Under the pieces are notes generated by a model. It was not told where the DNA came from and ran no database searches. It worked only from the letters and a program-made list of their open reading frames with translations. The translations under genes and the position numbers were made by a program. Positions 2,423-8,064 of a stretch of 64,000 bases of DNA are shown piece by piece. Every line of letters starts with the position of its first letter. Position 1 is the stretch's first letter. The stretch lies in sequence record AP019521.1. One strand, 5' to 3'. The stretch is from Escherichia phage KIT01.

Positions 2423-2732
2423 TTTTAACTACCTCATGTTGAACATATTCTCTGGTAGAACCTAGTTCAGCCAGAATTCTTCTCATAGAACCCATTGTAC
2501 TCTTGTGCTCCCGATGGCGATACATTATCTCTAAAACCTTTTCCTGGACAACAGGAGAGAGCGCCTGGTTATCTTTAATCTTTAAGGCAATAGATTTTAC
2601 AGCCTTAAGGTATTCAAGTCCCTTACCGCTTGTAGTCACTACTCCTTCGTCCTTACAGTTACGAATGGCCGTTTCCATAAAGGATAAAGCTAGGTTGCCA
2701 GTGTTCACTATACTGTTATCTTGCATAATCAT
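2409..2732 (-). CDS. hypothetical protein
   Basis: ORF track 2409..2765; start moved to ATG at 2732 preceded by GAGGTGA and lying downstream of the -10 of an early promoter. Confidence 0.45.
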   Translation of the reverse strand: MIMQDNSIVNTGNLALSFMETAIRNCKDEGVVTTSGKGLEYLKAVKSIALKIKDNQALSPVVQEKVLEIMYRHREHKSTMGSMRRILAELGSTREYVQHEVVKNDKL

Positions 2733-2751
2733 ATTCTCACCTCTAGATAAT

Positions 2752-2780
2752 CCTATCATAACCACAGGTCTTTGTAAACC
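2752..2780 (-). promoter_or_regulatory. early sigma70-type promoter (GTTTAC -35, TATGAT -10)
   Basis: plus-strand gtaaac at 2775-2780 = minus GTTTAC; drives 2409..2732. Confidence 0.45.
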
Positions 2781-2805
2781 CCGAAAAGGGCCCGAAGGCC
2801 CTTAA
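2780..2805 (-). terminator. intrinsic terminator, UUCG tetraloop hairpin
   Basis: minus strand GGGCC-UUCG-GGCCC followed by UUUU; directly after stop of 2806..3006. Confidence 0.5.
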
Positions 2806-3006
2806 TTAGTTGCTTGAATCGACCTTATAGACTTGTCCGCGGGTTTGGTAAACTTCGCCGTCCCATGTCTCGACTGTAATAGTCACGTATTCTGCAAACT
2901 GAGGTCTAGTATCAGTCCAGATATAACCGTATTCACCGGTGACGAGCGTAACCCAGTACTTTCTCATAAAGTCTCCTTTTGTATGGCACCAATTAGTACC
3001 ATACAT
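2806..3006 (-). CDS. hypothetical protein
   Basis: 66-aa ORF between gene 39 and terminator hairpin at 2786-2803. Confidence 0.4.
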   Translation of the reverse strand: MYGTNWCHTKGDFMRKYWVTLVTGEYGYIWTDTRPQFAEYVTITVETWDGEVYQTRGQVYKVDSSN

Positions 3007-3011
3007 ATTTA

Positions 3012-4829
3012 TTACGACATCCAGGCCTTACGGAGTTGTGGGTCATTACCAAGGAGCATTTCGAACTGTTCTTTCCAATCTTCAGGTAATTGAACCACAT
3101 CAAATTTAGGGTCTTGAATCATTCGGCGGTATTCAGCTTTCTCAAGAGAACCTAGTCCTTTGATGTATCGAATAGAATGTTTTGGTAGAGAGTCCTTAGC
3201 TTTGGTATAACTAGGCACATCATAAAACCATTCCTGTTCTTTACCAACCTGAGCAATAATTACCGGAGTTTTACAGAACCGTACTCGGCCTTGTTCGAAC
3301 AATTCAGGCCATTGACTAAAGAAGGCTAGCAATGACGGATAAATCGAACCAGTACCATCCACATCAGCATCAGTCATGATAGCTATATTACGATAGTTGG
3401 TTTTCTCTGCAGGTTCACCAATAACCAATCCAGTGATTGCACAGATATCAAATAGTTCCTTGTTCTTCATGATATCTGTTGCTGTCATTCCCCAGGTATT
3501 CATGACCTTACCACGTAATGGATAACCGCCTTGAAGGTCTTTATTACGGACTTCAATGAAAGGACCCATAGCGGAATCACCTTCGGTTAGGAACAGGGTT
3601 GTATCGGCATCTTTGCCGTATAAGTTAGCTTTAATATGCTTATGGACCTTGGCTTTAGAAGCTTTCTTAGCGGCTTTAGTTTCAGCTGCCTTTTCAGCTG
3701 CTAATTTACGTGCTAAAGCAGCTTCAACGATAGGCATAATCAACCCTTCGTCTTTAAGAATATACTGTGAGATTTTCTTTGCATCAATTTGAATATGGTT
3801 ACGAATTTCACCGAATGGTGACGTCAAACGTTCTTTAGTCTGGGAATCAAAACGCATATTACTCATATCGCGAATGAACATCAGCATAGTTAAGCATTCT
3901 TTAACTCGTGCCTTACTTACTTCAATGCCTTTATATTTCTTCTTGATGCCTGGCAAGAGATGTTCGCAGATATCATCAAACACACATTCAACATGATGAC
4001 CACCATTCTTAGTATGAATATTGTTCACATAAGTTAGGTGACGGAATCCATCTGGAGATGTAGTAAATGCCATTGAGACATTATCGGTTTCTTGGATTAC
4101 TACATCTTTACCAAATTGATTAGCATACTTTTTAAAGTTACCATCTACTTTTTTACCATTAAAAGTAAATTGAATATCAGGATAAATTACGGCTAGAGTT
4201 TTAAGACGATCTAGAGTAATATCCAGATAAATTTGCGACAGAGAGTTCTCTTCGAAATGGCTAAAGTCCGGAGTGAATATAACCGAAGTACCCTTACCTT
4301 TAGATTTCTTAGTAGACCAACCTTTGTTTTCCATTCCATTGGAACAGTTAACTGTAATTTCATTCTCGCCATCAGAGGTGATGCCTGTGAACAAAACAGA
4401 GAAGATATTAGTTAAACTACTACCGACACCATTCATGCCGCCTGTCTTACGCTCAGCGTCATCTCCAAAGTTACCACCAGCCTTTGGAATAGTCCATGCA
4501 GCTACAGGACCTGGAATCTGTTCACCATTTTGGTCGGTGACCATTGCTTGTGGAATACCACGACCATTATCAGAAACCGAAACCTGGTTATTCTTAATTT
4601 GAACATCAATTTTATTTGCGAATTTAAAATTGGTACGAATAGCTTCATCGACAGAGTTATCAATGATTTCGTCAATTAATTTAACCAGTCCAGGAACATA
4701 GTTCACCTGAGTAAAATTACCAAACAGGAATCGACCGTGAGCTTCATTAGCACTGGAGCCAATATACATCCCACTACGTTTTTTGATATGTTCAATGTCG
4801 GACAGTACTTTAATTTCATTCTTAATCAT
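3012..4829 (-). CDS. 39: DNA topoisomerase II large subunit (GyrB-like ATPase + Toprim), unsplit 39/60 form
   Basis: 605 aa; GHKL ATPase N-terminus (GMYIGS, IDNSVDE), Toprim LTEGDSA, PLRGK; length matches fused gp39 of T2-type phages rather than split T4 39+60. Confidence 0.9.
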   Translation of the reverse strand: MIKNEIKVLSDIEHIKKRSGMYIGSSANEAHGRFLFGNFTQVNYVPGLVKLIDEIIDNSVDEAIRTNFKFANKIDVQIKNNQVSVSDNGRGIPQAMVTDQNGEQIPGPVAAWTIPKAGGNFGDDAERKTGGMNGVGSSLTNIFSVLFTGITSDGENEITVNCSNGMENKGWSTKKSKGKGTSVIFTPDFSHFEENSLSQIYLDITLDRLKTLAVIYPDIQFTFNGKKVDGNFKKYANQFGKDVVIQETDNVSMAFTTSPDGFRHLTYVNNIHTKNGGHHVECVFDDICEHLLPGIKKKYKGIEVSKARVKECLTMLMFIRDMSNMRFDSQTKERLTSPFGEIRNHIQIDAKKISQYILKDEGLIMPIVEAALARKLAAEKAAETKAAKKASKAKVHKHIKANLYGKDADTTLFLTEGDSAMGPFIEVRNKDLQGGYPLRGKVMNTWGMTATDIMKNKELFDICAITGLVIGEPAEKTNYRNIAIMTDADVDGTGSIYPSLLAFFSQWPELFEQGRVRFCKTPVIIAQVGKEQEWFYDVPSYTKAKDSLPKHSIRYIKGLGSLEKAEYRRMIQDPKFDVVQLPEDWKEQFEMLLGNDPQLRKAWMS

Positions 4830-4847
4830 GTTATTTCCTCATGTAGT

Positions 4848-4880
4848 AGGAGAATATTATCCCATTTCACTTAAAGCATA
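4848..4880 (-). promoter_or_regulatory. candidate MotA-dependent middle promoter for gene 39
   Basis: minus strand reads tATGCTTTAAg (MotA box) - 12 nt - TAATAT, about 20 nt before the gene 39 SD. Confidence 0.45.
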
Positions 4881-4899
4881 AAAGGGCCGAAGCCCTTAA
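4876..4899 (-). terminator. terminator-like UUCG hairpin overlapping stop codon
   Basis: minus GGGC-UUCG-GCCC then UUUAUGCUUU. Confidence 0.4.
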
Positions 4900-5156
4900 T
4901 CAAATCGAATGGTCGACTTTTTAAAGAATAATCCAGAACAAACAGTTCCTTCAACCCTTTTACCTGTCGGACCCACCGCAATAAAGCCTGTACGTTGGAA
5001 ATCATCTTCAGAACAGCCAAATAGGTTGTATCCTGTAATTTGGATTTGTTCATAGCCATTTGCATCTAATACACGGGTAGCATTATCGGCATCAGTACAA
5101 CCTACCAACGAAACTGCTAGTACAAGAGCTGCAATAGAACGATTAACATATTTCAT
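4896..5156 (-). CDS. predicted lipoprotein
   Basis: N-terminal signal peptide with lipobox LVGC; 86 aa. Confidence 0.5.
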   Translation of the reverse strand: MKYVNRSIAALVLAVSLVGCTDADNATRVLDANGYEQIQITGYNLFGCSEDDFQRTGFIAVGPTGKRVEGTVCSGLFFKKSTIRFD

Positions 5157-5162
5157 AATTTC

Positions 5163-5339
5163 TCACTTAGTCAGTAGGTCGTAAAAACCGCCATTAACGT
5201 GTTTAGGAGCCGAGACTAACCGAACAGCCAGCCGTTGGCAATCAGGACAAACATCATTATCTCTTTCAGAGATTTTCTTGATTTTTTCGTATTCTTTTGC
5301 ACAGTCTTCAGATTGGCATTTGTAATCATAAAGTGGCAT
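5163..5339 (-). CDS. zinc-ribbon protein (FmdB-like)
   Basis: start set at MPLYDYKC after GGAG SD; CxxC...CPDC pattern. Confidence 0.5.
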   Translation of the reverse strand: MPLYDYKCQSEDCAKEYEKIKKISERDNDVCPDCQRLAVRLVSAPKHVNGGFYDLLTK

Positions 5340-5550
5340 TATAAGTCTCCTTCCAGAATTCAGTGCCTTCAGCAGTGATTTCACGGAACACTGCATAGAT
5401 AGGGTTTTTATCACCTTGATTTTCGTATACGTAAACCGACGATAAATGAGAAAACGTATCAGAATGTTCCTTTTGAACCACGATTAAATCAGGGTTGAAC
5501 AGGACATCTTCAAATTCTTCACGAGTCGAGTTCACAGTAACTTTAGCCAT
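5326..5550 (-). CDS. hypothetical protein
   Basis: 74-aa ORF, 14-nt overlap with downstream gene start. Confidence 0.4.
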   Translation of the reverse strand: MAKVTVNSTREEFEDVLFNPDLIVVQKEHSDTFSHLSSVYVYENQGDKNPIYAVFREITAEGTEFWKETYNATL

Positions 5551-5621
5551 TTTATTTTCCTCATTTGTTGATAGGGTAATAATATCACTACCCTACCATA
5601 TTGTATACTATTTTTTTAACT

Positions 5622-6191
5622 TTATGCACGATGAGCCGTAGCATATTCAACTATGAAGCTTTCAGGAACTACTTTAAAGCTACCAAGGAATACGATGTTA
5701 TACAGCTTAACACCTTCTTCAACCCATTGGTCTGTGATAAAACCACCCATGATAGTAGTTTTATTAGTTCCACCAAACGGCGGTTCATATTTAAATTCAA
5801 ATGGCTTAGGAGTAACAAAACGCACACCTTTACCTAATTTCCATTTGAAATCAACGCCAACATGAGATTGATCAATAGTTTCAACGTCTTGAGCTACTAC
5901 GCCACGGATATCATTGCTTTCACATACATACCCATCGTGGGATTCAACTTCTTCAACCACTGGGGTGTGAACCGGTTCAGGAACTACCGGACGCGCTTTA
6001 CCGACCTGAGGAATCAAAGTGACATAGCGTTCTTTAACGTATCCTACAAAAGAAGAAACGAAACCATTGGAACGAAATGCCTGGACTTTAACAAGACCAC
6101 GAGAGAAATTGAATCCAATAATAATACATTTTTTACCAGCAACTTTAGATTTAGAATCTTCGGAAACTGTTACGATATCACCGATTTTCAT
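5622..6191 (-). CDS. hypothetical protein, paralog A (shared C-terminal ITDQWVEEGV domain)
   Basis: 189 aa; C-terminal GGFITDQWVEEGVKLYNIVFLGSFKVVPESF resembles neighbour 6269..6823. Confidence 0.5.
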   Translation of the reverse strand: MKIGDIVTVSEDSKSKVAGKKCIIIGFNFSRGLVKVQAFRSNGFVSSFVGYVKERYVTLIPQVGKARPVVPEPVHTPVVEEVESHDGYVCESNDIRGVVAQDVETIDQSHVGVDFKWKLGKGVRFVTPKPFEFKYEPPFGGTNKTTIMGGFITDQWVEEGVKLYNIVFLGSFKVVPESFIVEYATAHRA

Positions 6192-6230
6192 AATATTACC
6201 TTTTGTTTAGGAATTAGGTTTATTCTCCAT

Positions 6231-6266
6231 GAGAGCCATTATAACATGGCTCTCGATAAAGTAAAC
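6231..6266 (-). promoter_or_regulatory. early promoter cassette with 9-bp inverted repeat flanking -10
   Basis: gtaaac 6261-6266, -10 TATAAT; gagagccat / atggctctc arms at 6231-6239 and 6246-6254. Confidence 0.5.
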
Positions 6267-6268
6267 TA

Positions 6269-6823
6269 TTAATTCAATACATTAACCACTGCACTACGAG
6301 GTACTACACTAAAATCACCTGCATGGACAACGTTCAGAAGCTCAACACCATCTTCAACCCACTGGTCTGTTACCCAACCACAGATAGGATTATCGAAAGG
6401 ACGACGGATAGACACAGCAGCACACAGAAGGTCGGTAGGGTCTTGTTCTTCAACTTCTTGGAACAGGATTAACTCTGCTTCATAAACCAGGTTTTTCTCT
6501 ATTTTGTTATTATCTAACCGGCGACCGTGGATGACGTAAGATTCGGCAAACCAGTCACTTTTGGCAAATTCTTCAACAATAAATTCGCCTTCGCCAAAAA
6601 CATCAGTCAGGGTTTTATGGCCGGAAATCAAGGCCTTAGTTTTAATTTCAGGTTCAACCAGTTTGTAGGTTTTGCCGATTTCGATAGTCTGAGTAGTCAT
6701 AGTAGGTTCCTTAATTTCCAGTGGTTTAACAGGGCATACATAAGTGCTTAAAACATCAAAATCAAAATCAATCAGCTTAGCTGCAGGATTTGGAGTGTAT
6801 TTAGGGTTGTAATTAAATTTCAT
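6269..6823 (-). CDS. hypothetical protein, paralog B
   Basis: 184 aa; C-terminal CGWVTDQWVEDGVELLNVVHAGDFSVVPRSA parallels 5622..6191. Confidence 0.5.
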   Translation of the reverse strand: MKFNYNPKYTPNPAAKLIDFDFDVLSTYVCPVKPLEIKEPTMTTQTIEIGKTYKLVEPEIKTKALISGHKTLTDVFGEGEFIVEEFAKSDWFAESYVIHGRRLDNNKIEKNLVYEAELILFQEVEEQDPTDLLCAAVSIRRPFDNPICGWVTDQWVEDGVELLNVVHAGDFSVVPRSAVVNVLN

Positions 6824-7329
6824 ATTGTTCTCAATTCAATAAAATCTACGAGTTCGGCATGGGATTTGCGGAACATTACTTGGCGGCCACCGATGACAAC
6901 CTCATCTTCCGGTATTTCGTAAACAGCAAGATAGAATCCTTTAGAAGATAATTCAGCACGCTCTTCACGAGTGAACCAACGCATCATATCATACTCGCTG
7001 GCAAAAGCAAAATGGTAGAGGTTAACAAACCAACCTGGAATATAATCATCACAGCCTTCATAATCAGGCTGGTCCCACTTAGTTCTAATGCTTTTATTAG
7101 AATTTTCCACCAACAACTTGTCTTGACCTGGTAGTGGAATATTTTTATTATTGGTATGATGGTGTCTAAAATTAGGTCTGTCGAAACCTACTTCCAATAA
7201 CCAACCTTCACTCCATTCGTCAAATGAGCCTCTATACGGGGTTAATTGGCGGCATTGATGACGAGTGATTGCGATAACATCGCTGTTGTCTAGGATACTG
7301 AACGATGACTCCACTCGATAAATTTTCAT
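6820..7329 (-). CDS. hypothetical protein
   Basis: 169-aa ORF, GAGGAG SD, ATGA overlap with downstream gene. Confidence 0.45.
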   Translation of the reverse strand: MKIYRVESSFSILDNSDVIAITRHQCRQLTPYRGSFDEWSEGWLLEVGFDRPNFRHHHTNNKNIPLPGQDKLLVENSNKSIRTKWDQPDYEGCDDYIPGWFVNLYHFAFASEYDMMRWFTREERAELSSKGFYLAVYEIPEDEVVIGGRQVMFRKSHAELVDFIELRTI

Positions 7330-7333
7330 TTTG

Positions 7334-7385
7334 TTCTCCTCATGTTGATAGGGTAGATAATATCATGTCATGAGGAGAAGTAAAC
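7334..7385 (-). promoter_or_regulatory. early promoter/stem-loop cassette (PeSL-like)
   Basis: gtaaac 7380-7385, 17-nt spacer, -10 at 7357-7362; 11-bp perfect inverted repeat 7334-7344 / 7369-7379 pairing the SD with the promoter spacer. Confidence 0.6.
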
Positions 7386-7389
7386 ACTT

Positions 7390-8064
7390 TTATCGATTTT
7401 TTACACTTAACGGGTCAGGATTCTCAGGGACATCTTCCAGACCTAAGGCATATCGTTGGGCATATTTAAGCATCAAGATATCCTTAGCACAGTCATGGAT
7501 GGAGTCATGGGCAACAAAGCCGTTCAATGTTCCATTAGGCAGAGGACACATGCTCAATCCGCGAGTCAATGAATAGGCTTCAATAGCCGTACGGATATCA
7601 CGTTGGTTCCAGAATTTAACCGGTTCTAATTTGCTGGTATCGATTTCATTCTCAGGAACACCTTCAGAACGATAAGCATCGCGAATAAGGTCGACTAAGA
7701 TAGGAAAGTCGAATGACATTCCACGACACCACATCTGTGATTTCCATTGGTCCACTTCGTTTTTACGGCAGTATTCCAGGAAATTACCGAGACCGATAGA
7801 AGTGCTCACATCCATTTCGGATGGAGCCAGGTTTTTACGTGCTTCAGGCCCTTGCTCTTTCCACCACTGCAATGTGCTTTTAGAAAACAGTCGTCTATCA
7901 CGTTGAGAAGCGAGGTCAAATTTAATACGAAGGCCTCGTTGAGTAAGCTCTTCAAACGATTCTACTACCTCTGGATTAGGGTCATAAGCAATTACTGCAA
8001 GGTCGATAACCGCCGCATTTTGGGTTGTGGCAAAGGTTTCGAAGTCAATAATTATATCTTTCAT
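7390..8064 (-). CDS. dexA: exonuclease A (DEDDh 3'-5' exonuclease)
   Basis: 224 aa; IIDFETF...AVIDLAVIA..DPNPEVVE...CRGMSFDFPILVDLIRD...FVAHDSIHDCAKDILM matches T4 DexA as recalled. Confidence 0.85.
   Translation of the reverse strand: MKDIIIDFETFATTQNAAVIDLAVIAYDPNPEVVESFEELTQRGLRIKFDLASQRDRRLFSKSTLQWWKEQGPEARKNLAPSEMDVSTSIGLGNFLEYCRKNEVDQWKSQMWCRGMSFDFPILVDLIRDAYRSEGVPENEIDTSKLEPVKFWNQRDIRTAIEAYSLTRGLSMCPLPNGTLNGFVAHDSIHDCAKDILMLKYAQRYALGLEDVPENPDPLSVKNR

What the first reader, a model, noticed from the sequence alone, without database searches (positions are those of the whole stretch)
5622..6823. Adjacent paralogs sharing a C-terminal (I/V)TDQWVE(E/D)GV domain
ORFs 5622..6191 and 6269..6823 have different N-terminal halves but a clearly related C-terminal roughly 45-residue module (GGFITDQWVEEGVKLYNIVFLGSFKVVPESF versus CGWVTDQWVEDGVELLNVVHAGDFSVVPRSA), indicating duplication with domain swapping in the motB/cef-equivalent region.
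Basis: seen in the sequence. Interest (0 to 1): 0.4.

Follow-up and report, generated by a model that had tools for sequence, protein, structure and literature searches.

The report
MotB and MotB.1 share C-terminal domain
Two neighbouring early genes of this T4-like coliphage, motB and motB.1, really do share a conserved C-terminal domain behind different N-terminal domains, but this relationship was published for phage T4 in 2021, so the finding is correct and ordinary.

Summary
ORF 5622..6191(-) is MotB (Pfam PF17613, 120.9 bits) and ORF 6269..6823(-) is MotB.1 (phrog_2333, E 5e-85) of a Dhakavirus (about 93% nt identity to phage JS10; MotB 100% identical to phage KIT01). They share a C-terminal stretch: BLASTP 19/34 identical, E 6e-11; shuffle z = 16; family profile comparison 37 columns, 98% probability. 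AlphaFold models and intermediate family members indicate that the whole C-terminal beta domain is homologous (about 57 aa in MotB.1, 80 aa in MotB, which has a longer basic hairpin). The N-terminal domains differ: KOW/SH3-like in MotB, LSm-like in MotB.1. Among 1.84 billion representative proteins only about 28 carry the module. It is always C-terminal, sits behind at least three N-terminal architectures, and was found only in T4-like phages of Enterobacterales, 2-3 tandem genes per genome. New details: the shared module is the most conserved and an acidic part of both proteins, so it is unlikely to be MotB's DNA-binding surface. The T4 reference motB.1 (119 aa) has a 1-nt frameshift inside the module that 13 other close T4-type records listed lack. 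Low interest.

The parts
5622..6191 (-). motB coding sequence (189 aa): KOW/SH3-like N-terminal barrel, acidic disordered linker, C-terminal beta domain
   Evidence: Pfam PF17613 E 6e-35, residues 2-187. phrog_1671 E 2e-54. 100% identical to MotB of Escherichia phage KIT01. Syntenic with JS10 motB.
6012..6191 (-). MotB N-terminal domain (aa 1-60), basic (net +6), five short strands
5865..6011 (-). MotB linker (aa 61-109), acidic (net -7), predicted disordered, variable or absent in other MotB proteins
   Evidence: pLDDT < 50 for residues 63-108. Gapped in T4-type MotB in alignment A2. Charge.
5754..5864 (-). MotB-specific first half of the C-terminal domain (aa 110-146): long basic beta-hairpin FKWKLGKGVRFVTPKPFEFK..., net +4
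   Evidence: AF2 strands 122-134 and 142-158. MotB.1 has no counterpart except a short strand and the PF motif. Charge.
5643..5753 (-). Shared module in MotB (aa 147-183): IMGGFITDQWVEEGVKLYNIVFLGSFKVVPESFIVEY
   Evidence: hhalign columns 147-183. BLASTP HSP. Most conserved segment of the family, mean pairwise identity 0.76 vs 0.52-0.53 for the N-terminal domain and the hairpin.
6269..6823 (-). motB.1 coding sequence (184 aa)
   Evidence: phrog_2333 E 5e-85 over residues 1-184. 181 homologues, all listed carrying a PF17613 hit. Syntenic with JS10 motB.1. The start codon overlaps the motB.2 stop (ATGA).
6449..6688 (-). MotB.1 LSm-like/SH3-like N-terminal barrel (aa 46-125)
6272..6442 (-). MotB.1 C-terminal domain (aa 128-184), acidic
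   Evidence: AF2 strands 136-139, 147-157, 160-167, 170-175, 179-183. Family alignment places DPTDLLC.AV.I..PF opposite MotB FKW.LG.GV.F..P.EF through long-hairpin intermediates P0219, P0220 and P0222.
6278..6391 (-). Shared module in MotB.1 (aa 145-182): NPICGWVTDQWVEDGVELLNVVHAGDFSVVPRSAVVNV
   Evidence: hhalign columns 145-182. Pfam motB hit 144-179, 35.8 bits. Mean pairwise identity 0.94 vs 0.75 for the LSm-like domain. Net charge -4.
6707..6766 (-). Short conserved linear motif in the disordered N-terminus of MotB.1 (aa 20-39, FDFDVLSTYVCPVKPLEIKE), also found between domains in other family members
   Evidence: An HMM built from 8 other proteins hits this segment at E 2e-7 (E 1.8e-5 in the six-frame window scan), and also hits P0213, P0215 and P0216, which were not used to build it. 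pLDDT < 50.
6238..6265 (-). Early-type promoter-like site for motB (TTTACT, 16 nt, TG-TATAAT) in the 77-nt motB.1-motB spacer
   Evidence: Consensus scan, 10 of 12 matches with an extended -10 TG. Sequence read. Function is inferred only.
6820..7329 (-). motB.2 (169 aa). Not a module carrier. Upstream gene apparently co-transcribed with motB.1; a promoter-like site lies at 7357-7384
   Evidence: phrog_1106 E 1e-52. JS10 annotation. Promoter scan. No module hit in this ORF.

Best explanation
The two ORFs are motB and motB.1 of a Dhakavirus, a T4-type coliphage close to KIT01 and JS10. They are old tandem paralogues. Both end in the same small all-beta C-terminal domain (five strands with a 3-10 turn before the last strand). 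Its final 37 residues, with core T-D-Q-W-V/I-E-D/E-G-V-x-L-x-N-V/I-V-x-x-G-x-F/Y-x-V-x-P, are the most strongly conserved part of each protein. Each gene joins this domain to a different N-terminal small barrel: a basic KOW/SH3-like barrel in MotB and an LSm-like barrel in MotB.1. The family has evolved by duplication plus exchange of N-terminal cassettes and by lengthening or shortening of the first hairpin of the C-terminal domain. These points are shown here. The following is known from work on T4, not tested here: MotB is an early, non-specific DNA-binding, nucleoid-compacting protein that co-purifies with H-NS/StpA and doubles burst size; MotB.1 has no known function or deletion phenotype. 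The following is inferred. The shared module is net acidic in almost all members, and MotB.1 as a whole has pI 4.7. MotB's positive charge sits in its N-terminal domain (+6) and its MotB-specific hairpin (+4). The shared module is therefore more likely the conserved structural core and a common protein-contact or self-association surface than the DNA-binding surface. The variable N-terminal barrels probably supply the nucleic-acid specificity, DNA for MotB and possibly RNA for MotB.1. Confidence in identity, homology and modular evolution is about 0.95. Confidence in the functional inference about the module is about 0.3.
For: Identity of the genes. Significance and extent of the shared module. 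Equivalent strand order in both C-terminal domains (MotB 122-134/142-158/161-168/171-176/180-183; MotB.1 136-139/147-157/160-167/170-175/179-183). Intermediate forms linking the two C-terminal domain types. The module is always C-terminal and sits behind KOW-like, LSm-like, double LSm-like or other N-termini, with about 28 genuine hits among 31 in 1.84e9 representatives. Distribution: 780 phage records, 1685 places, 2-3 per genome, all T4-like phages of Enterobacterales; three tandem genes in Mosigvirus PhAPEC2. Age of the duplication: 61% nt identity and 44% at third codon positions. Ongoing cassette exchange: MotB aa 19-76 cannot be aligned between two Dhakaviruses. Module is the most conserved segment. 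Charge partition. Published background: PMC7827196, PMC12152347, PMC6070864.
Confidence: 0.8

Rival explanations
1. The shared C-terminal domain is the nucleic-acid-binding element (an OB-fold/cold-shock-like domain, as proposed for T4 MotB). Both MotB and MotB.1 would then bind DNA or RNA through it, and the N-terminal barrels would act as accessory protein-interaction domains.
For: HHpred-based assignment of MotB residues 69-149 to the cold-shock DNA-binding OB family, reported in PMC7827196. The module is the most conserved segment, as expected for a functional site. Small beta-barrels commonly bind nucleic acids (general knowledge).
Confidence: 0.25
2. The similarity reflects recent gene conversion or recombination between the two neighbouring genes, not retention from an old duplication.
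For: Of the 19 identical residues, 14 use the identical codon. blastn detects a 32-nt stretch with 90.6% identity between the motB.1 module of the window and the motB modules of JS10 and WG01.
Against: Over the 108 aligned nucleotides identity is only 61%, with 44% at third positions, and the longest exact run is 11 nt. MotB-type (VKLYN..F.G..KV.PES) and MotB.1-type (VELLNVVH.G.F.VVPRS) modules stay distinct and are each conserved across several genera.
Confidence: 0.08
3. The resemblance is a chance or compositional match between two unrelated small proteins.
For: The shared stretch is short (34-37 aa).
Against: BLASTP E 6e-11, shuffle z = 16, hhalign probability 98%, Pfam hit above the gathering score, and the same motif in about 28 representative proteins, always at the C-terminus.
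Confidence: 0.01

Closest known systems
Bacteriophage T4 MotB (NP_049626, 162 aa; Pfam PF17613, phrog_1671)
   Same: Same gene position between cef and motB.1. Same N-terminal KOW-like barrel and C-terminal domain. 49% identity to the window protein in alignment A1. Full-length Pfam match.
   Different: The window protein has an extra acidic, disordered linker of about 27 aa (VVPEPVHTPVVEEVESHDGYVCESNDIRGVVAQ) that T4 lacks, which lowers the overall pI to 7.7 against the reported 9.23 for T4 MotB. Its N-terminal cassette belongs to a different subtype from that of most other Dhakaviruses. DNA binding was not tested for this protein.
Bacteriophage T4 MotB.1 (P39415, 119 aa in the reference; 143 aa in resequenced T4; phrog_2333)
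   Same: Same position upstream of motB, an LSm-like barrel followed by the MotB-like C-terminal module. 56% identity over the last part of the barrel and the start of the module. The 143-aa T4 form ends ...GGWVTDQWIEDGVELLNVVHAGEYSVVPRSAVVAILN.
   Different: The window protein has 45 additional, predicted-disordered N-terminal residues that contain the short FDFDV..TY...KPLEIKE motif. The T4 reference annotation is truncated inside the module by a 1-nt insertion.
Published 'MotB / MotB.1 CTD family' of Tevenvirinae (Patterson-West et al. 2021, Viruses 13:84, categories 1-4)
   Same: The same relationship: a conserved C-terminal domain with different N-terminal domains, duplication suggested, and several copies per genome in some phages. 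The window pair is one more example, from a Dhakavirus.
   Different: Nothing essential. This analysis adds the limits of the shared stretch (37 aa), the charge partition, the hairpin-length continuum and a census among 1.84e9 representatives.
GoF / Frd.2 / MotB.1 LSm-like fold family (Kim et al. 2025, PMC12152347)
   Same: The MotB.1 N-terminal barrel is the published LSm-like member. The model here shows the five-strand barrel with one helix.
   Different: GoF and Frd.2 do not carry the MotB C-terminal module; the paper describes 'CTDs of various structures'. The phage in this window has lost goF altogether.
KOW/Tudor/SH3-like small beta-barrels (NusG/Spt5 KOW, PHF19 Tudor, KIN17 tandem SH3-like)
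   Different: Sequence identity is 7-21%, there is no sequence-level relationship, and the matches cannot be assigned to a particular domain of the models.

Membership tests
MotB (Pfam PF17613 / phrog_1671), for ORF 5622..6191 | Full-length profile match above the curated threshold | tested here: met
   PF17613 120.9 bits (gathering score 25), residues 2-187 on profile 4-160/162. phrog_1671 E 1.9e-54, residues 1-189.
MotB (Pfam PF17613 / phrog_1671), for ORF 5622..6191 | Two-domain build: N-terminal KOW-like barrel plus C-terminal beta domain | tested here: met
MotB (Pfam PF17613 / phrog_1671), for ORF 5622..6191 | Conserved genome position (cef - motB - motB.1 - motB.2 - dexA) with its own early promoter | tested here: met
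   Synteny with JS10, WG01 and T4. Promoter-like site at 6238-6265; this is a consensus match only.
MotB (Pfam PF17613 / phrog_1671), for ORF 5622..6191 | Tight non-specific DNA binding, nucleoid compaction, co-purification with H-NS | not testable with these tools
   Known only for T4 MotB (PMC6070864, PMC7827196).
MotB.1 (phrog_2333), for ORF 6269..6823 | Full-length profile match | tested here: met
   phrog_2333 E 4.7e-85, residues 1-184 on profile 1-210/210. 181 homologues.
MotB.1 (phrog_2333), for ORF 6269..6823 | LSm-like five-stranded N-terminal barrel | tested here: inconclusive
MotB.1 (phrog_2333), for ORF 6269..6823 | C-terminal MotB-like module | tested here: met
   PF17613 35.8 bits over residues 144-179. 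hhalign 98%.
OB-fold / cold-shock DNA-binding domain (published assignment of the MotB CTD) | Five-stranded barrel with a helix between strands 3 and 4, and structural similarity to OB domains | tested here: inconclusive

The most novel reading that the evidence does not exclude
The invariant, acidic C-terminal half-barrel (TDQW.E.GV.L.N.V..G.F.V.P) may not be a nucleic-acid-binding element. It may instead be a shared docking or co-assembly domain. Through it, MotB (KOW-like, DNA), MotB.1 (LSm-like, possibly RNA) and the extra paralogues of other T4-like phages would bind one common host or phage partner, or form mixed oligomers, linking nucleoid compaction to RNA handling. As a corollary, published functional tests of T4 MotB.1 used the 119-aa reference form that lacks most of this domain, so they may have missed its activity.
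Probability: 0.15. Interest if true: 0.4.

Novelty: already known. Interest (0 to 1): 0.15.

Why it matters
It matters little as a discovery. The MotB/MotB.1 C-terminal relationship and the duplication idea are in the literature, and this window adds one more Dhakavirus example. Three details could help people who work on these proteins. First, the shared part is only the last 37 residues plus a variable hairpin, and it is acidic, so MotB's DNA binding probably lies elsewhere in the protein. Second, the family is very small, restricted to T4-like phages of Enterobacterales, and combinatorial in its domains. Third, the reference T4 motB.1 ORF appears to be truncated by a single-base difference, which affects how the published MotB.1 experiments should be read.

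Tried and rejected
- Sequence searches of both proteins and of a C-terminal-domain profile against PDB chains found nothing meaningful.
- I asked whether the C-terminal domain is an internal duplicate of the MotB N-terminal barrel. hhalign gave probability 0.5%, so I rejected this. The LSm-like domain vs C-terminal domain 'hit' in the same call is an artefact, because my C-terminal slices included the end of the LSm-like domain.
- I asked whether the MotB linker (SHDGYVCESNDIRGVV) carries the same short motif as the MotB.1 N-terminus. The motif HMM gives no significant hit in MotB, so I rejected this.
- I asked whether the first 17 residues of MotB.1 are a relic of the extra N-terminal domain seen in the 248-250-aa variants (P0013). 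BLASTP gives only E 0.073, so this stays a weak suggestion.
- The BFVD search returned only the family itself and weak hits.
- The Nucleic Acids Research 2021 paper on MotB compaction (PMC8450097) is not held in the library. What I say about compaction rests on the abstracts and citations in the held papers and on my own knowledge.
- A third copy of the module was sought in the window and none was found.

Full report
**What is at the coordinates.** The window is a T4-type phage genome segment with genes on the minus strand (gp39 topoisomerase, 39.1, 39.2, cef, motB, motB.1, motB.2, dexA, dda). Megablast of 4800-7400 finds 479 phage records. The best is Escherichia phage JS10 (Dhakavirus), at 93.3% identity over 100% of the query, where the two ORFs are annotated motB and motB.1. 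The MotB protein is 100% identical to that of Escherichia phage KIT01.
- ORF 5622..6191 matches Pfam motB PF17613 over its full length (120.9 bits) and phrog_1671 (E 2e-54).
- ORF 6269..6823 matches phrog_2333 over its full length (E 5e-85). It also matches PF17613 over residues 144-179 only, at 35.8 bits, above the gathering score of 25.

**Is the similarity real?** Yes.
- BLASTP gives one ungapped HSP, MotB 148-181 vs MotB.1 147-180, 19/34 identical, E 6e-11.
- The Smith-Waterman score is 16 standard deviations above 2000 shuffles.
- hhalign between a 25-sequence MotB alignment and a 19-sequence MotB.1 alignment aligns 37 columns with 98% probability, E 2.3e-13.
- Nothing else in the proteins is alignable by sequence.
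- A six-frame scan of the 64-kb window finds only these two copies.
The sequence-level module is MotB 147-183 and MotB.1 145-182.

**How far the homology extends.** AlphaFold2 models were built from the family alignments.
- MotB: a confident N-terminal five-strand barrel (1-60), a disordered acidic linker (63-108, pLDDT < 50) and a confident C-terminal domain with strands 122-134, 142-158, 161-168, 171-176, a 3-10 turn, and 180-183.
- MotB.1: a disordered N-terminus (1-44), a barrel with one helix (46-123) and a C-terminal domain with strands 136-139, 147-157, 160-167, 170-175, a 3-10 turn, and 179-183. Only one of the five MotB.1 models was confident, so this model is weaker.

The two C-terminal domains have the same strand order. 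MotB has a much longer first hairpin. An alignment of the C-terminal 85 residues of the representative family members shows intermediates (P0219, P0220, P0222). These start like MotB.1 (DPTDLL..VRF) and carry a MotB-like long hairpin (P.EFEF...). They link MotB.1 'DLLCAAVSIRRPF' to MotB 'KLGKGVRFVTPKPF'. I conclude that the whole C-terminal domain is homologous: 57 aa in MotB.1 and about 80 aa in MotB.

**Distribution and architectures.**
- A profile of the module was searched against 1.84 billion cluster representatives. It gave 31 hits with E <= 0.001, about 28 of them genuine, and the module is always at or near the C-terminus.
- Domain HMMs built here sort the hits as follows:
  - KOW-like domain, basic hairpin, module (MotB proper).
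  - KOW-like domain, short motif, MotB.1-type C-terminal domain (P0209, P0214, P0218-P0220, P0222, P0224, P0226).
  - LSm-like domain, module (MotB.1 proper, including a 144-aa T4-like form, P0212).
  - Two barrels, module (P0211, P0213, 246-251 aa).
  - Fragments or fusions (P0207, P0188, and P0225, which joins the motB.2 start to the module end).
- tblastn of the MotB.1 C-terminal domain against 50,697 phage records finds 780 records and 1685 places, 2-3 per genome, all in Escherichia, Shigella, Klebsiella, Yersinia, Salmonella, Enterobacter or Citrobacter T4-like phages.
- More distant members belong to Klebsiella, Raoultella and Erwinia T4-like phages and to Yersinia phage MHG19.
- Mosigvirus PhAPEC2 has three module genes in tandem at the same locus.
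- Within Dhakavirus, MotB residues 19-76 of the window cannot be aligned at the DNA level with WG01, although the flanks are 88-93% identical. N-terminal cassette exchange is therefore recent as well as old.

**Age of the duplication.** The two modules are 61% identical in DNA, 44% at third codon positions, and the longest exact run is 11 nt. The MotB-type and MotB.1-type modules keep their own signatures across genera. The duplication is old. Limited conversion in the TDQWVE.GV core cannot be excluded, because 14 of 19 identical residues use the same codon and a 32-nt stretch at 90.6% identity is detected between paralogues.

**What it probably does.** T4 MotB is an early protein. It binds DNA tightly and non-specifically, co-purifies with H-NS/StpA, is toxic when expressed alone and doubles burst size (PMC6070864, PMC7827196). 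Its compaction of the nucleoid comes from a paper I could not read here. T4 MotB.1 has an LSm-like N-terminal fold, and its deletion had no phenotype (PMC12152347). Which MotB domain binds DNA has not been determined; PMC7827196 says either could. My analysis adds two observations.
- The shared module is the most conserved segment of both families: mean pairwise identity 0.76 vs 0.52-0.53 in MotB, and 0.94 vs 0.75 in MotB.1.
- The module is net acidic in 23 of the 26 aligned family members (+1 in two and 0 in one). In the window it is -2 in MotB and -4 in MotB.1, and MotB.1 has pI 4.7 overall. MotB's positive charge lies in the N-terminal barrel (+6) and in the MotB-specific hairpin (+4).

I therefore think the module is the conserved core of the C-terminal barrel and a common protein-contact or self-association surface. 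Nucleic-acid contacts would be supplied by the variable parts. This is inference, and I give it about 0.3. The rival view, that the C-terminal domain is the nucleic-acid-binding OB-like element, gets about 0.25.

**Expression context.**
- motB.2 and motB.1 overlap by ATGA and follow a promoter-like site at 7357-7384.
- motB has its own T4-early-type promoter-like site (TTTACT, 16 nt, TG-TATAAT) in the 77-nt spacer.
- These are consensus matches only.

**Comparison with what is known, and novelty.** Patterson-West et al. 2021 state that T4 MotB and MotB.1 share a conserved CTD with different NTDs. They suggest duplication, define four categories of CTD-bearing proteins, and note 40 phages with both genes. 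Some database annotations already name MotB.1 homologues 'transcription regulator MotB domain-containing protein'. The finding is correct and already known.

**Side observations.**
- In the T4 reference (NC_000866.4/AF158101) motB.1 is 119 aa and ends GGWVTDQWIGRWR*. The rest of the module (EDGVELLNVVHAGEYSVVPRSAVVAILN*) follows in another frame, because of one extra G (TGGATTGGAAGATGG vs TGGATTGAAGATGG).
- Thirteen other close T4-type records listed (resequenced T4 isolates, T4T, RB55, RB59) give a match one base shorter (517 vs 518 nt). The two records inspected, MT984581 and T4T, annotate a 432-nt, 143-aa motB.1, and the MT984581 copy translates to a complete module.
- The 2025 study used synthesised genes and reports a 13.8-kDa MotB.1, which is the truncated form.
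- The window phage has lost goF by a near-exact 370-bp deletion.

Noticed in passing
L002 (T4 NC_000866.4) 5190-5340, minus strand; compare window 6272-6391: The T4 reference motB.1 (119 aa, P39415) is truncated inside the shared module by one extra G (TGGATTGGAAGATGG vs TGGATTGAAGATGG). The rest of the module is intact in the next frame. Thirteen other close T4-type records listed (resequenced T4 isolates, T4T, RB55, RB59) match one base shorter; MT984581 and T4T annotate a 143-aa protein, and the MT984581 copy translates to the full module. Published MotB.1 expression experiments used synthesised genes and report 13.8 kDa, the truncated form.
   Followed up: yes
window 5326-5414 (junction at 5337-5339): This phage lacks goF. 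Similarity to JS10 jumps from L001 3040 to 3411 (370 bp, the goF gene), and the same gap is seen against WG01. cef now overlaps the start of 39.2 by 14 nt. The 83-aa GTG-started ORF 5163..5414 in the mechanical ORF list is probably over-extended; the likely 39.2 start is the ATG at 5339.
   Followed up: partly
window 5963-6135: The part of motB that encodes residues about 19-76 (N-terminal barrel and start of the linker) has no blastn match to Dhakavirus WG01, although the flanking DNA is 88-93% identical. MotB of JS98, E33 and WG01 is only about 60% identical to the window protein, against 86% for JS10 and 100% for KIT01. This is a recent N-terminal cassette replacement within one genus.
   Followed up: partly
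window 6707-6766 (MotB.1 aa 20-39): A short conserved motif, (I/V/F)D.D(V/I)..(M/T)Y...(K)P(L), lies in a predicted-disordered segment. In other family members the same motif sits between the KOW-like domain and the C-terminal domain, or at the N-terminus. An HMM built from 8 proteins recovers 4 proteins not used to build it, including the window MotB.1 (E 2e-7). It could be a short linear interaction motif.
   Followed up: partly
window 6231-6254 and 5569-5598, minus strand: Two stable hairpins each enclose the -10 hexamer of an early-promoter-like site just downstream of a stop codon. After motB.1: GAGAGCCAT-GUUAUA-AUGGCUCUC, -20.4 kcal/mol, z -5.9. After motB: -16.7 kcal/mol, z -4.3. Neither is followed by a U-run, so they are not classical terminators. 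They could be 3'-end stabilisers or processing sites of the upstream transcripts.
   Followed up: partly
P0013, P0079, P0085, P0211, P0213 (homologues, not in the window); P0225: Some MotB.1 homologues are 246-251 aa, with an additional N-terminal domain or a second LSm-like barrel. The first 17 residues of the window MotB.1 weakly resemble the start of these long forms (E 0.073), which hints at an internal deletion. P0225 (43 aa) is a fusion of the motB.2 start (MKIYRVESSFSILD) to the last 28 residues of the module, a deletion derivative.
   Followed up: partly
L005 (Mosigvirus PhAPEC2) 2680-4121: There are three consecutive module-bearing genes (MotB.1-like 164 aa, MotB-like 151 aa, MotB-like 139 aa), and motB.2 lies on the other side of the array, so the gene order differs from T4 and Dhakavirus.
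   Followed up: no
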